Below are positions 53,368 through 61,470 of a stretch of 64,000 nt of DNA, piece after piece. Position 1 is the stretch's first letter. The number at the start of each line of letters is the position of its first letter. Source of the DNA: Gemmatales bacterium. GTDB taxonomy: Bacteria; Planctomycetota; Planctomycetia; Gemmatales; HRBIN36. Under the pieces are notes generated by a model that was not told the origin of the DNA, did not search any database, and saw only the letters and a program-made list of their open reading frames with translations. Location: the NCBI GenBank assembly GCA_041640595.1, contig JBEPZY010000003.1:508342-572341 (forward strand). The letters run 5' to 3'. A program made the position numbers and the translations under genes.

Positions 53368-55612
53368 ATGAGCTGGCGTTCTTCCTGGTGTGTGCGTCGG
53401 ACACACACACGGGATACTCCGCGCGGGGTGGGAGCTTTGGCTATCTAAAATCGGCCGCTGGTTCCGCAAACGACCATCGCGTTGCCTGACTAGGTTGCAA
53501 TTCGAACCTTTGGAAAACCGTTCGCTGCCTAGCTTGAGTATTCACCTGCCGGGGCCCTTCACCTATCAGGAAGGCGAGTACGTCTTGATCCAGCCGGAGG
53601 TAAGCCATACTCCGGAGCCGGACCAGTGCGGCAGTGGGCCGCTAATGTTTTCCGCCAGTGGGTTACCGGATGGCCTTTCGCTCGATGCTGCTACTGGGCA
53701 AATCACCGGCATTCTGCCCCACAGCCTCGCCAACCGCATTCGTCCAACCCGCGAATATAGTATCACCCTGACCGTCAGCGACGGTGTTGAGACCGCCTCG
53801 ACATCGGCGACATGGACCATCCGCAATACGGACTATATCTTACTTAGTCCCGGCGACCAATCTAATAGCGAAGGTGACTATGTCTATCTTGACCTGCAAT
53901 CGCTTTGGGGTTCTGCGTATGCCGGCCTGAACACCCAGGCCCCCTTAATGTTTAGTGCCTATAATCTTCCCGCTGGCCTAAGTATAGACTCCAGCACCGG
54001 CGTTATTAGTGGCACGATAGATTCTAACATTGCCACTGCGGAACAACCCCAGGTCAACCTGTGGGTTACTATCACTGTCGTCAACCAGGCCGACGGCGAC
54101 ACCTCAACGATTAGCTTCAACTGGCTCATCCAGGATAATCCGAACTTAGAACCACCTCCCCCGGCAACTGGACACGGCCATACGCACACCGGCGGCAATG
54201 GCACGACGGGCGATGACAACACCCACACCGGCGACGACGGGACGACCATCAACGACGGCGATGGTACGACGATCAACGACGGCGGCAGTGGCACCACCGG
54301 TGACACCGGAGCCACCGACGATATGAACGGCCACACGGGCGACCATGGCACTGGCACGACGGGCGATAACAACACCCACACCGGCGACGACGGGACGACC
54401 ATCAACGACGGCGATGGTACGACGATCAACGATGGCTGCAGCGGCACGACCGGTGACACCGGAACCACCGGGGATACGAACGGCCACACCGGCGACGATG
54501 GCACTGGCACGACGGGCGATGACAACACCCACACCGGCGACGACGGGACGACCATCAACGACGGCGATGGTACGACGATCAACGATGGCGGCAGCGGCAC
54601 GACCGGTGACACCGGAACCACCGGGGATACGAACGACCACACCGGCGACGATGGTATGACGGGCGATGACAACACCCACACCGGCGACGGAAGCAGCGGC
54701 CACACGGGCGAAACGGGAACAATTGGCGACACAGGTGGATCTGCGACCACCGGCGACAGCGGTGGGACGGGGACCACCGGCGATACCGGCACAGGCGGCG
54801 ATGACAACACTCACACCGGCGGCGACGGGACGACCATCAAGGATGGCGGCACTGGCACCACGGGCCACAGTGGCAACGACCCACCACCGCAAACCGAACC
54901 ACCACCTGACCCCGGCGGAGGTGAGACGGGAGGAGACGGCGGCGATACGGGTACCGACGAAAATACGAATACCGATGGCGACGACGAACAAACTGACCAA
55001 TTGGACACAGAGCAAGGCCGGCATTGGGACCTTGGCCTGGCTTGGTTTTATCTTAATGGAGCGTTTCTCACCGAGCACGATCATGACGGCCGGATGCTAG
55101 CCATCTCCGTTGTTACACCTTATGCAGATGTTTTGCGCTATGAGTTTGACTTAGATGGTAAATTGATCGCCCTGCACTATACAAAGCTAGGTGGGCCAAC
55201 GGAAAGTGTTTACAGTAGGGATCTAGACTGGGTGGAGGGACCTGAAACGGAATATGATTTTTCAAGCGATTTGGAGCAGTTAGTCCAGGCGGTGAATACA
55301 GAGGCTGAAGAATGGTTAGTAGGCCGTTTCATCCCAACAGCATCCAACTATGGAGTTCAAGGTAACGACAGCGAAATTCACCGGGATAATAACCAGACCC
55401 ATGAAAGTTCTACGGTTTCCTCCCCAGGCGAGTGCGAGTGTGAAGTCTCCTCAGGTAATGAACCAGTTAGCGATTCAGGAAGCAACTCCCAACAGCAGCC
55501 AATTCGACTTCATCTACTACTCCTTTGGAATCCGATCAGGCTAACCACAGCTCCGAACAACCTGATTCGCGAAAACCAATTCTGGAATATCTACGCCTGT
55601 CTAAGGAATTAG
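53368..55612 (+). pseudogene. Polymorphic toxin N-terminal part (LEPR-xLL motif, two putative Ig domains, G/D/T-rich stalk); frameshifted
   Basis: LQFEPLENRSLPS; FSASGLPDGLSLDAATGQITG and [21 protein letters not shown]; 153-bp repeats at 54206, 54359 and 54512. The ATG at 53368 is out of frame across (AC)5; in-frame GTG at 53390. Confidence 0.75.
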
Positions 55613-57045
55613 GTGTGGGTTGGCTGATCCCCCAGGAGCTTGACGACTGGCTCACAAAATATCAGGATCGTACTTTTGAAGCTGAGCACTACATTTGGTT
55701 TGAAGGCCGCCCTCTCGACCGGAAAGAGGCAGTCAGGTTACTCGAAGACCGCATACGGCGCATTGACGAGCAATTACCGAAGCAAGGGGAGCCTCGCTTA
55801 CAGCCACCTCTCCTGCGTCCCCTTCCAGCAGTAAATCCCGACATTGAGTCATCTCTATTACAAATGCAAAAAGACAGACTCAAGCAATGTGTCGAAGTTA
55901 TAAACAATCCGCGAATAGACTTATCTTGGTTCGCTGTTGACAATGGTTATCTCAGGCCTTTTGGCAAGGCTGCCGCCGATTGGTTGAAGCAGGGAATTCT
56001 TGCCAGGGCACAAGCCCAACAAGCGGCTTTCGAGTTTACTTTTACTTTGACTTTCCTTAGTGTGGCGGCAGTTAGTGTTCTTCCGGGGATGCAATATTTC
56101 CATCTAGTAGGCTGGAAAACTGTGGCATGGTCTGCTGCGGCCGCTGGCGGTTGTGCTGCCTTTATGTCGCTTACAGACCAATTGATCGAGAAATATATAG
56201 AGCACTCCCGGGCAGAAATTGATTATGGACAGATTCTCCTAAACGCAGCACTAGCTTCGGCGTTAGCGATTCCTCTAGCCCCGCTCGGCCCCCTTGTACA
56301 GCGTTCTTTTGCTAATTATCCGAAAACAACCCTTCTCACTCTACTAGGACTTCAGAGCGCACAAACTGCAACCGACGTCGCAGTTCAACTTCACAACAGT
56401 AAGCCCTATCACGCGGCCGCCCACGGTTTAGTCGACACGATGCTTATGGTTCCTACCACGATTGCAATCGCGCGGCCACAACTTCTTGTCAAGAAACCCC
56501 AGCCGGCGCAAACCGTACCACCAATTGTGATCGAACTACCTGTTGACCTGGGCGACCTGAGGATAACTCCGGTGTTCGTGGAGCAGCTTGGTTCCACGGT
56601 AATTCCAGTTCGCATCCTTTCCCAATCGGGTGGCCGACTGCGTGTTTGGGACCTCGGCAACGATGCTCGCGGCCGTATAATAGAGTTAGCCCTGGGGGCA
56701 AATTTGCCAAAGAACTTCGAAGTCATCGATCGCTTCGAGCGAGAAACTGGACTCATCCGCAGCATCAAGAGCAAAGACTTACGTCTGAAAACTTATGAAA
56801 ATAAGCAAACTGTACAGCGTGTGGTTAAAGAGGATATCGATAGGGTAGCTAAATTTAGTGGCGCTGAATATACTATTCGTGCTACTGGACAGCCTATAGT
56901 CATAAGACGAGAGGATATTCGCATTAGGGAGGTAATGCTGGCAATACCAAGTGATACCCCCGAGCAGCGAGTGCTGTGGCTGACAGAACTTATGGAGTAT
57001 GCGAACGAGAAAGGTGTACGCTTTATTATTCAGAAAATTGAATAA
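55471..57045 (+). CDS. Polymorphic toxin C-terminal part: hydrophobic pre-toxin region plus CdiA-CT(EC869)-like PD-(D/E)xK nuclease
   Basis: Frame open from 55471. LPKNFEVIDRFERETGLIRSIKSKDL...REVMLAIP...EYANEKGVRFIIQKIE matches the recalled EC869/YPIII CdiA-CT pattern LP.NF...D.F...TG...S.KS.D. Confidence 0.8.
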   Translation, partial: RFRKQLPTAANSTSSTTPLESDQANHSSEQPDSRKPILEYLRLSKELGVGWLIPQELDDWLTKYQDRTFEAEHYIWFEGRPLDRKEAVRLLEDRIRRIDEQLPKQGEPRLQPPLLRPLPAVNPDIESSLLQMQKDRLKQCVEVINNPRIDLSWFAVDNGYLRPFGKAAADWLKQGILARAQAQQAAFEFTFTLTFLSVAAVSVLPGMQYFHLVGWKTVAWSAAAAGGCAAFMSLTDQLIEKYIEHSRAEIDYGQILLNAALASALAIPLAPLGPLVQRSFANYPKTTLLTLLGLQSAQTATDVAVQLHNSKPYHAAAHGLVDTMLMVPTTIAIARPQLLVKKPQPAQTVPPIVIELPVDLGDLRITPVFVEQLGSTVIPVRILSQSGGRLRVWDLGNDARGRIIELALGANLPKNFEVIDRFERETGLIRSIKSKDLRLKTYENKQTVQRVVKEDIDRVAKFSGAEYTIRATGQPIVIRREDIRIREVMLAIPSDTPEQRVLWLTELMEYANEKGVRFIIQKIE

Positions 57046-57071
57046 AATGAACAGCAAGAAGGAAACATTGT

Positions 57072-60350: not shown

Positions 60351-60388
60351 CCAGCGAGATTGGTTTCTCCTGCGTGCAGCCAATCTGC

Positions 60389-61470
60389 TCCGCCGCAGAC
60401 CGAACCACCGCCTGACCCCCGGCAACGACTCGCCACCGCAAACCGAACCACTACCTGTTGACCAGAATGACCAACTTCAGCTCGACAATGTCGGGGAAGA
60501 TTATGTTAGCATCTATATTGGGCCGCTGGTAGATGATGAAGCTGTGCGGTTGGTCATATGTGTTAGAGAAGACAAGCATCTATATTGAGCCGTTGGTAGA
60601 TGATGAAGGCCATGTGCTTAGCTATACGGTAACCGGTCTGCCGGACGGCATTGACGTTGTCTATGTTGAGGTTGCGGCAGATGGCAGAGAACCGGGTGCC
60701 TATCTGCAAGGTTATATCGCCTACAGTAACGTGGCCAGCAACGCCCCACCGGTGGATTTTCATGTTATCATGACCGTTACCAAAGAAGGCGATGGGAATA
60801 GTTTCCAAAGCGATAGTTTCACGTGGACGATTAGGGACACATCTAGGTTAGGGTCTATATCTGACCAAGTTTCAAGGGAGGGCGAGTTTATTTTCTGGAT
60901 ACCCCCAGTCGCCAGGACGGAAGGGGAGACTTTGGTGATCCATTATTCGGGATTGCTCTTGGGTCTGGAATACTTTGCAAACTCGGGGCTGGTGTATGGA
61001 TATGTCAGTTACGCTAACATTGCCAGCAATGGTCACGCCCGATCCTTGGAAGTCACCATTTTCGTGAACGACGGGACAGGTATGGAGAGCAAAACCTTCC
61101 AGTGGCAGGTTGAGGATACGAACAGGATTCCTGTTTTGCCGGATGTTAGTATTAGCGAAGGCGACTATATAAACGTGAAAATAAATGCTGAAGACGCGAC
61201 GGGAGCCAGCTTGACGTATGCCGCGGATAACCTGCCCCGGGGTCTAAGAATAGACTCGGCGACAGGACGCATTACTGGAACGGTTTCTTATCGCAACGTC
61301 GGCCCTAGAGAAGGAGTGAGGGAATTCATTATAAGCATTCGCGTTACTGATGGCGAGAGCGAGGATATGAGGACGGTCACCTGGACAGTCCAGGATAAGG
61401 ACTGGTGGTCGGCACCGCCGAACCTGACTAACTCAGAGGGCGAGGATGTGTGCTTTGAACTTTGTGCTCC
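60389..61470 (+). pseudogene. Start-less fragment with putative Ig domains, homologous to the toxin N-terminal region
   Basis: Begins with two partial copies of the toxin linker 54872-54916; YTVTGLPDG, LTYAADNLPRGLRIDSATGRITG, NSEG; a 67-bp duplication shifts the frame; degenerates into repeats after about 61470. Confidence 0.7.

What the first reader, a model, noticed from the sequence alone, without database searches (positions are those of the whole stretch)
53368..61470. Polymorphic toxin locus built on a planctomycete LEPR-xLL/Ig-domain exported scaffold
Seen: an AT-richer island encoding an LEPR-xLL-type motif, two putative Ig domains, an acidic G/D/T stalk, a hydrophobic helical region and a C-terminal nuclease-like domain. 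A small downstream gene and two further cassettes follow. Known: the toxin C-terminus and its partner resemble the CdiA-CT/CdiI pair of E. coli EC869 (a DNase), normally delivered by two-partner secretion. Here there is no CdiB, no filamentous haemagglutinin repeats, no Rhs core and no T6SS gene in the window. Inference: a contact-dependent antagonism system that uses the planctomycete export motif (also on the 41.1 kb surface protein) and an Ig/low-complexity stalk. This is a delivery chassis I do not recognise as described.
Basis: partly seen in the sequence, partly recalled or inferred. Interest (0 to 1): 0.85.

Follow-up and report, generated by a model that had tools for sequence, protein, structure and literature searches.

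The report
Frame-switched planctomycete surface toxin family
A hot-spring planctomycete mounts swappable antibacterial toxins, each with an antidote gene beside it, on proteins carrying a planctomycete export signal not previously tied to toxins, and every such gene in this genus sits out of frame at a short slippery repeat that probably acts as an on/off switch.

Summary
The toxin locus is real. The C-terminus is an EC869-o11/TA271-type nuclease domain (Pfam E 2e-14; Asp, Ser and Lys catalytic positions kept). The next gene is a distant CdiI of that family; the model supports binding (0.88, best control 0.01). One is a real 1-nt frameshift at 55498, absent in 2 of 4 hot-spring runs. The other is an (AC)5 run after the ATG that puts the gene out of frame. 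All 13 scaffold starts found in this genus are out of frame at such a repeat; 0 of 25 other motif-bearing genes in the genome have one. The genome holds six scaffold loci with different C-termini (DNase, RNase A-like, Hint plus unknown, unknown), partner genes and orphan cassettes. In other genera of the order, 20 of 38 long Hint-toxin frames I picked carry the same leader, 13 without Rhs. So this is a polymorphic toxin chassis that I did not find in print, with a genus-level slippage switch. Toxicity, export route, contact dependence and an in-frame allele are not shown. The scan's notes held no report of this chassis; they did hold similar repeat switches on other DNA.

The parts
53368..53448 (+). 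Natural start ATG and 26-codon reading frame, out of frame (+1) with the scaffold
   Evidence: the equivalent ATG in paralogs follows a strong GGAG-type ribosome site; the site is degenerate here
53388..53410 (+). GTGTGTG arm (53388-53394) and (AC)5 run (53401-53410): candidate slippage switch; the two pair in the predicted RNA fold
   Evidence: (z -1.2, weak); a 2-nt shorter run in runs X3 and X11
53411..53530 (+). Trp/Arg-rich leader and planctomycete motif LQFEPLENRSLP (53495-53530)
   Evidence: consensus from PMC8567305
53537..54130 (+). Two He_PIG Ig-like domains (start of the first is approximate)
   Evidence: PF05345 E 9.4e-20, 2 stretches, best at residues 151-246
54174..54990 (+). Gly/Thr/Asp low-complexity stalk with 153-nt period repeats, ending in a Pro-rich linker
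54991..55498 (+). Region of unknown family in frame A, up to the strain-level 1-nt frameshift at about 55498
55525..56660 (+). Helical pre-toxin region with two or more hydrophobic helices (about 56026-56290); possible entry domain
   Evidence: hydropathy; no longer homologs; PT-TG look-alike at 0.87 is a lead only
56668..57045 (+). EC869-o11/TA271-like PD-(D/E)XK nuclease domain; Glu 56683 (inferred equivalent of E177), Asp 56728, Ser 56761, Lys 56767
   Evidence: residue roles from PMC9086364
57072..57575 (+). Cognate immunity gene, distant CdiI-o11/NMB0488 family; a 98% identical orphan copy lies at G000:C3:128368-127695
57853..59058 (+). Orphan cassette 2: no start codon, 101-nt 97% copy of the stalk (57925-58025), then a different C-terminal region of unknown fold
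59055..60350 (+). Leucine-rich-repeat protein overlapping the cassette-2 stop; putative partner of cassette 2
   Evidence: LRR_4 E 2.2e-9; partner role inferred from position; N-terminus looks hydrophobic by eye but did not pass the hydropathy cut-off
60378..61461 (+). Cassette 3: Pro-rich linker remnant and Ig-repeat stalk fragment, 95.7% identical over 887 nt to the paralogous locus on G000:C2

Best explanation
This is one locus of a polymorphic toxin family in a hot-spring Gemmatales planctomycete. When in frame, the gene makes a protein of about 1,225 residues. Steps: (1) The 5' dinucleotide run gains or loses one unit by slipped-strand mispairing, putting the ATG in frame in a minority of cells. 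Out-of-frame state and length variation are shown; switching on is inferred. (2) The Trp/Arg leader with the LxxExLExRxxP motif routes the protein to the cell surface. Inferred from published proteomics; the machine is unknown. (3) Ig domains and the acidic stalk hold it out from the cell. Inferred. (4) The hydrophobic helices help the C-terminal domain enter a neighbouring cell. Inferred; there is no Hint protease in this copy, so the release step is unknown. (5) The C-terminal domain cuts DNA like the Zn-dependent EC869-o11/TA271 toxin. Family and three of four catalytic residues are shown by alignment. (6) The downstream CdiI-like protein binds the toxin's beta-hairpin and protects kin. Supported by homology and a model. 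(7) Downstream cassettes that begin with stalk sequence can replace the tip by recombination. Anatomy shown; exchange inferred. The allele in this window is also inactivated by a 1-nt loss at 55498, so this strain keeps immunity but probably cannot deploy this toxin.
For: Toxin and immunity; complex model score 0.88 with best control 0.01 (the mark was reached by 116 of 157 solved and 2 of 215 mismatched pairs; runs agree in at least 93% of contacts; partner pLDDT at least 87), interface on residues 79-99, the hairpin region. Polymorphism: paralogs share the leader/Ig head but end in RNAse_A_bac + CdiI_2 (E 9e-29, 1e-16), PT-HINT + unknown tip, or unknown tips. Orphan immunity copies elsewhere in the genome. 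Order-wide: 20 of 38 picked long PT-HINT frames carry the leader; tips include HNH, LHH, AHH, Tox-REase-2 and ribonuclease; L173 and L175 are 87.5% identical over 1,170 columns and differ in the tip. Switch: 13 of 13 starts out of frame; 0 of 25 other motif genes have a repeat and 24 of 25 have an in-frame start; 5 of 10 non-CG dinucleotide runs of 5 or more units in 4.45 Mb lie at scaffold starts; run length differs between related leaders (6-23 nt) and between runs. Frameshift: identical in X1 and X2, absent in X3 and X11.
Against: No in-frame allele was seen in 13 genomic starts or in the 4 runs, although contigs drop rare variants. MutS and MutL are present in 5 of 5 genomes tested, so runs of 3-5 units should switch slowly. 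Several loci carry further stops or shifts (window, C2:407 kb, C2:584 kb, C3:617 kb, G003 C2 and C41), which fits decay. Many tips in the genus are Ig-like or unknown and are followed by exported TIGR03067-type or WD40 proteins, with no toxin family hit. The immunity protein alone scores below the PF07262 cut-off (13.3 against 25 bits), and the complex resembles solved ones, so the pass may be from memory. The Glu177 equivalence was not covered by the PDB alignments.
Confidence: 0.68

Rival explanations
1. Same toxin system, but the repeat works at the RNA level: RNA polymerase slips by one unit on the dinucleotide run, helped by a nascent hairpin, so every cell makes a little full-length toxin from a gene that stays out of frame.
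For: 13 of 13 starts are out of frame and any out-of-frame dinucleotide run is one unit from in-frame. Related leaders differ by three units and keep the same offset (window 5 and G003 C2 8; G003 C142 4 and C332 7). Mismatch repair is present. A complementary arm pairs with the run in predicted folds of 4 of the 6 correctly placed starts folded. Stem-loop-driven slippage is known for Roseiflexus IS630 (PMC5009743, passages).
Against: Offsets are mixed (7 at +1, 6 at +2), so the slip would have to go both ways. DNA run length does vary between populations. Hairpin z-scores are weak (-2.3 to +0.3). The review passages read hold no dinucleotide case (0 hits for the word).
Confidence: 0.15
2. The loci are decaying. 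The repeats are mutation hot spots that knocked the genes out, and only the immunity genes are still kept.
For: No in-frame allele seen; extra breaks in at least six loci; one start has lost its ATG (G001); orphan immunity copies are intact.
Against: Long frames stay open behind the repeat (1698, 800, 677 and 834 codons stop to stop). X3 and X11 carry the unbroken junction. The repeat sits at the same position in different leaders and with two repeat units, and is otherwise rare in the genome.
Confidence: 0.1
3. The family is mainly a set of variable adhesin or self-recognition proteins with cognate exported partners, like VARTIG in Thermococcales. Nuclease tips are occasional captures from Rhs arrays.
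For: Tips in G002 and G003 look like beta-sandwich domains and are followed by TIGR03067-type proteins. The genome has an Rhs cassette array at C3:72-80 kb. VARTIG has the same layout (PMC8416519, abstract).
Against: Two of six loci in this genome end in recognised nuclease + immunity pairs and a third in PT-HINT + tip + small partner. Across the order the leader carries many nuclease tips.
Confidence: 0.05
4. Frame B (55525-57045) is a separate gene started at TTG, unrelated to the Ig/stalk gene upstream.
For: It is listed as its own 506-codon frame; no longer homolog was found among 8000 scored candidates.
Against: Runs X3 and X11 carry one more base at 55498, which joins A and B. Cassette 2 begins with a copy of the same stalk.
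Confidence: 0.02

Closest known systems
CdiA-CT/CdiI o11 of E. coli EC869 (PDB 4G6U, called TA271 in PMC9086364) and Y. pseudotuberculosis YPIII (4ZQU)
   Same: Toxin domain family, Asp/Ser/Lys positions, protruding beta-hairpin region modelled in the interface, immunity family.
   Different: No haemagglutinin repeats or TPS domain in the scaffold; an Ig + G/T/D stalk and planctomycete leader instead; hairpin region about six residues longer than in 4ZQU; gene gated by a 5' repeat.
Polymorphic toxin systems (Zhang et al. 2012, PMC3482391; passages of abstract, Table 1-3 and text)
   Same: Leader + stalk + variable tip, adjacent immunity, orphan cassettes, Hint in some members, LRR proteins as partners. 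Planctomycetes are listed as carriers of many toxin domains.
   Different: The Table 1 rows I saw (Sec/T2SS, T5SS, T7SS, TcdB/TcaC, PrsW, MuF; abstract adds T6SS, PVC) name no planctomycete motif. 'Phase variation' has 0 hits in the held text. Additional file 1 was not read.
Planctomycete surface-protein motif RRLxxExLExRxLLA / LxLExLExRxxP (PF07595; Seeger et al. 2021, PMC8567305, passages)
   Same: Motif and N-terminal position; found there on 52 Tuwongella proteins, with Ig, protease and integrin-beta domains.
   Different: That paper has 0 hits for 'toxin'; the export machine is not identified in the passages read.
LEPRxLL giant proteins Cag_663/Cag_665 of Chlorobium chlorochromatii (bioRxiv 10.64898/2026.03.19.712371, passages)
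   Same: A related N-terminal motif on surface proteins reported to move into a partner cell on contact.
   Different: 20,000-37,000 residues, mutualistic, next to a TolC gene, no variable toxin tip or immunity gene in the passages read.
Repeat-driven phase variation of H. pylori oipA/sabA (search listing abstracts) and NTHi lav (PMC9022572, abstract)
   Same: Repeat in the first codons that sets the frame of a surface protein; lav is mostly OFF in isolates.
   Different: Here the gated genes are interbacterial toxins in a free-living thermophile; runs are short; no ON allele has been seen.
VARTIG modules of Thermococcales (PMC8416519, abstract)
   Same: Ig-domain head with hypervariable C-terminus and varied downstream genes in a thermophile.
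   Different: VARTIG has no recognised toxin domain in the abstract; this family has clear nuclease/immunity pairs.

Membership tests
Polymorphic toxin system | N-terminal trafficking part, central stalk, C-terminal toxin domain | tested here: met
   continuity of A and B rests on the allele in X3 and X11
Polymorphic toxin system | Shared N-terminus with different C-termini among homologs | tested here: met
Polymorphic toxin system | Cognate immunity gene directly downstream | tested here: met
   (homology and model, not binding data)
Polymorphic toxin system | Orphan tip/immunity cassettes with homology to the main gene | tested here: met
   101-nt 97% stalk copy in cassette 2; orphans at other loci
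Polymorphic toxin system | Killing of neighbours and rescue by immunity | not testable with these tools
   needs bench assay
EC869-o11/TA271 PD-(D/E)XK toxin family | PF21111 above cut-off | tested here: met
   54.2 bits against 27
EC869-o11/TA271 PD-(D/E)XK toxin family | Asp198, Ser209, Lys211 | tested here: met
   aligned D, S, K with the same spacing; numbering from PMC9086364
EC869-o11/TA271 PD-(D/E)XK toxin family | Glu177 | tested here: inconclusive
   a Glu is conserved in RGxxIE among relatives, but the PDB alignments start after it
CdiI o11 / PF07262 immunity family | Profile score above cut-off | tested here: inconclusive
   13.3 bits alone; linked through P0006 (E 3.4e-5); 9-row profile hits 4g6u_B at 1.8e-7; low-confidence model ranks 2gkp, 4g6u_B, 4zqw_B first at E 0.015-0.06
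CdiA/CdiB contact-dependent inhibition (T5SS) | TPS domain and haemagglutinin repeats in the toxin protein | tested here: not met
   Pfam finds only He_PIG and PF21111 in frames A and B
CdiA/CdiB contact-dependent inhibition (T5SS) | CdiB/TpsB transporter in the genome | tested here: inconclusive
   0 matches, but the controls did not ring
Rhs toxins | RHS repeats and core in this scaffold | tested here: not met
   the one genome match lies at another locus
T6SS effector | T6SS sheath gene in the genome | tested here: not met
   VipB 0 matches, control rang in E. coli; genome 95% complete
Planctomycete surface-motif proteins | N-terminal LxLExLExRxxP | tested here: met
   LQFEPLENRSLP, one deviation
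LEPR-XLL proteins as modelled in NCBIfam (model name recalled) | Hit to the curated model | tested here: inconclusive
   no NCBIfam hit to frame A at E 0.1; I did not confirm that the model is in the library
Simple-repeat phase variation | Repeat between start codon and body that sets the frame | tested here: met
Simple-repeat phase variation | Repeat length varies among close relatives | tested here: met
Simple-repeat phase variation | Both ON and OFF alleles occur | tested here: inconclusive
   0 in-frame of 13 starts and none in 4 runs; contigs drop rare variants
Simple-repeat phase variation | Reversible high-frequency switching | not testable with these tools
   needs raw reads or culture

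The most novel reading that the evidence does not exclude
The planctomycete LxLExLExRxxP leader marks an unrecognised toxin-export route used across Gemmatales, one that can deliver nucleases into neighbours with or without an Rhs shell. In this hot-spring genus the whole arsenal is kept permanently out of frame and is read only through hairpin-assisted two-base slippage of RNA polymerase on a dinucleotide run, which would be a new kind of recoding used to ration weapons.
Probability: 0.15. Interest if true: 0.92.

Novelty: new variant of a known kind. Interest (0 to 1): 0.76.

Why it matters
The planctomycete surface motif has been known since 2004 (as cited in PMC8567305) without a known machine or a clean assay. 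Toxin tips give it one: killing and immunity report export and delivery directly. The survey suggests that much of the toxin arsenal of Gemmatales rides on this leader, often without Rhs, so an export route is missing from the lists I could read. A repeat that gates every copy of a toxin family in a free-living thermophile would also show attackers and immune non-attackers arising within one clone. Gene callers miss the real starts and split these genes, so the family is easy to overlook.

Tried and rejected
Assembly error as the cause of the A/B break: rejected, two runs of different studies match the window over 54754-57036 with 0 differences (one may be the source sample). Cassette-2 tip: no Pfam family, no Atlas hit at 0.9 or above, only 6 close relatives including itself, model pLDDT 52.8, best fold Z 4.2; fold unknown. 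Pre-toxin helical region: no longer homologs, no similarity to paralogs, Atlas leads of 0.87-0.90 only. Immunity protein alone or with its 3 close relatives found no PDB relative. Promoter and terminator scans were at chance level. Hairpin over the repeat: weak support; one of seven folds (L210) was cut on the wrong strand and is discounted. Start-plus-repeat patterns in the 11 genomes of other genera in the family gave no hit followed by the motif. Depth differences between toxin and immunity in the runs were not used, as contigs cannot rank genes. The transglutaminase-like and lipase-like labels for the two tips at C3:617 kb rest on motifs I recall; Pfam and NCBIfam gave no such hit. Literature searches that found no description of the chassis; of the switch on a polymorphic toxin: with passages of PMC6211672 and PMC4287609 showing none. 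The library lacks most subscription papers, and no supplements were read.

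
Full report
Setting. The window is G000:C3:508342-572341 of a 4.45-Mb, 95% complete genome. Runs that hold the stretch are mostly hot-spring metagenomes. The closest named records for the Ig head are titled 'Bacterium HR36' and 'Gemmatales bacterium' (L109-L114, 56-80% identity), so the host is a Gemmatales planctomycete by inference.

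Observation. Two things were missed. The ATG at 53368 reads only 26 codons; the motif frame is offset by +1, and an (AC)5 run at 53401-53410 lies between them. Frame A (53390-55612) and frame B (55525-57045) are offset by +2. In four laid runs, X1 and X2 match the window over 54754-57036 with no differences, while X3 (depth 40.8 of 40.8) and X11 (3.59 of 3.59) carry one more base behind 55498, which joins A and B. The break is a real allele of this strain and the unbroken form exists in other populations. A continuous product would be about 1,225 residues.

Toxin and partner. The tip scores 54.2 bits on PF21111 (cut-off 27) and matches PDB 4zqu_A and 4g6u_A. The review PMC9086364 (passages) gives the active site as E177, D198, S209, K211 and the activity as Zn-dependent DNase, neutralised by insertion of a toxin beta-hairpin into CdiI. 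Asp, Ser and Lys align with the same spacing; the Glu is inferred. The 167-aa downstream protein is weak on PF07262 alone (E 0.075). A profile of it and its 3 close relatives found P0006 among 1.84 billion proteins (E 3.4e-5). The three other PF21111 matches in 201 genomes of the order are each followed by a similar gene, one scoring above the PF07262 cut-off. The 9-row profile hits NMB0488 (3e-8) and EC869 CdiI (1.8e-7). A single-sequence model of low confidence (pLDDT 47.7) still ranked those structures first, at E 0.015-0.06. The complex model scored 0.88 against a best control of 0.01; the mark was reached by 116 of 157 solved and 2 of 215 mismatched pairs; runs agreed in at least 93% of contacts, partner pLDDT at least 87; the interface centres on toxin residues 79-99, the hairpin region. 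A like complex is solved, so this shows likeness, not binding. A 98% identical copy of the immunity gene, with the last 28 codons of the toxin, stands alone at C3:128 kb.

Cassettes. Cassette 2 has no start codon and begins with a 97% copy of 101 nt of the stalk, then a tip of unknown fold, then an LRR gene. Cassette 3 is an Ig fragment nearly identical to part of the C2 locus. This is the layout of orphan modules.

Family in the genome. Six loci share the leader. Window. C3:425.9 kb: 1698 open codons, Ig head, PT-HINT (E 2e-17), short tip, partner, and an orphan Hint-tip/partner pair, with another orphan on C10. C2:407.5 kb: broken head, RNAse_A_bac (9e-29) + CdiI_2 (1e-16), and further cassettes followed by WD40 or TIGR03067-like genes. 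C8:40.4 kb: 800 open codons with another tip. C3:617.5 kb: Big_9/cadherin stalk, two tips, each followed by a gene with a hydrophobic N-terminus. C2:584.4 kb: truncated after the motif. By eye, nuclease tips have cytoplasmic partners and other tips have exported partners, as expected if the latter act in the envelope; this is inference.

Family beyond the genome. The He_PIG head itself was found in 3 of 3 other genomes of the genus and 0 of 37 others at E 1e-8. The leader-toxin design is wider. PT-HINT occurs in 95 of 201 genomes of the order. I picked 38 long frames (975-5776 codons) from the 150 listed of 277 matches, so this is not an unbiased rate. Fifteen matched a strict motif pattern and five more a relaxed one; several of the other 18 are cut by contig ends. 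Of the 20, 13 have no RHS repeat, 6 have (19 scanned), and one too long to scan has an Rhs core pattern. Stalks are He_PIG (13 copies in L171), Big_9, cadherin, PKD, Calx-beta or SdrD; tips include HNH, LHH, AHH, Tox-REase-2, ribonuclease and a BMT5-like domain. L173 and L175 are 87.5% identical over 1,170 columns and differ in the tip.

The repeat. In the genus I found 13 starts: 6 in G000, 5 in G003, 1 each in G001 and G002. All are out of frame, 7 at +1 and 6 at +2, with AC or TC runs of 6-23 nt. Caveats: two runs are only about three units, one of those has AAG for ATG, and one frame was read from the leader because the motif is lost. The naive chance of 0 in 13 is 0.005, but the starts fall into about seven related leader types, so it overstates. 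Controls: of 25 other motif-pattern frames in G000, none has a run of four or more units and 24 have an in-frame start with a ribosome site. Of 18 dinucleotide runs of five or more units in the genome, 8 are CG; 5 of the other 10 lie at scaffold starts. In the 20 proteins of other genera, 17 have an in-frame ATG, and the one repeat found lies upstream of its ATG. At the window's own site, a run 2 nt shorter appears in X3 (149.8 of 304.8) and X11 (48.3 of 61.7); it is also out of frame. So length varies, yet no in-frame allele was seen. Phase variation with a rare ON state is my best reading; NTHi lav is a precedent for mostly-OFF (abstract). Transcript slippage and decay remain open: MutS and MutL are present, the hairpin support is weak, and several loci have extra breaks.

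Export. VipB was not found, with a working control. TpsB and TPS searches were uninformative. Seeger 2021 (passages) ties the motif to probable surface proteins. A 2026 preprint (passages) reports LEPRxLL giant proteins moving between cells next to a TolC gene. The machine here is unknown, and contact dependence is inferred from the stalk.

Prior description. Zhang 2012 and 2011 (passages) list planctomycete toxins and assign those with signal peptides to Sec; I saw no mention of this motif. Searches found no paper joining the motif to toxins; two found none on a repeat-gated polymorphic toxin. Subscription papers and supplements, notably Additional file 1 of PMC3482391, were not seen and could list such architectures. 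The scan's notes held nothing on this chassis and several repeat switches in other genomes.

Verdict. A polymorphic toxin system by anatomy, not a CdiA, Rhs or T6SS member. New in its leader and stalk, widespread in Gemmatales, and gated in this genus by a 5' repeat. Interest 0.76; new variant of a known kind.

Noticed in passing
window 52541-52799, 52910-53180, 60508-60608, 61520-61882: Short direct repeats with periods of 66, 67 or 72 nt flank and interrupt the island. Earlier notes read such units in this genome as misplaced CRISPR spacer scars; not tested here.
   Followed up: no
G000:C2:407904-407553 against window 52976-53328: About 350 nt upstream of the scaffold start are 92% identical between the window locus and the C2 locus, suggesting a shared promoter region or duplication unit.
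   Followed up: no
G000:C3:72700-80450 (L234): Array of Rhs C-terminal cassettes with partner genes and no obvious Rhs head in the fetched stretch.
   Followed up: partly
G000:C3:128368-127695 and G000:C10:60500-61700: Stand-alone immunity genes with a stub of their toxin, inserted far from the parent loci.
   Followed up: partly
L031:2304-5634 (G003:C19): An exact tandem duplication of a tip + partner cassette.
   Followed up: no
G000:C2:584422-584456 and G003:C41:10262-10297: Here the GTGTGTC arm overlaps the ribosome site and pairs with the AC run in the predicted fold, so the start would be buried in a hairpin.
   Followed up: partly
L200 (G014:C2:2267206): A long AC run of at least 17 units after an ATG in a genome of another genus, with no motif downstream in 240 nt.
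   Followed up: no
L162, L164, L172-L175, L186: These non-Rhs leader-Hint toxins share a stretch of 600-1,400 residues (28-37% identity) before the Hint domain with no Pfam name in most; a candidate new stalk or delivery domain.
   Followed up: no
L186 C-terminus: A BMT5-like rRNA methyltransferase domain (E 7.6e-30) sits in the toxin position after PT-HINT.
   Followed up: no
window 41035-45369: ELWxxDGT-repeat surface protein with the same motif and an in-frame start; several close paralogs in the genome.
   Followed up: partly
G000:C3:418077-415999: A long frame that looks like a type III CRISPR Cas10-like gene (label by eye, recalled) lies just downstream of the C3:425 kb toxin locus.
   Followed up: no
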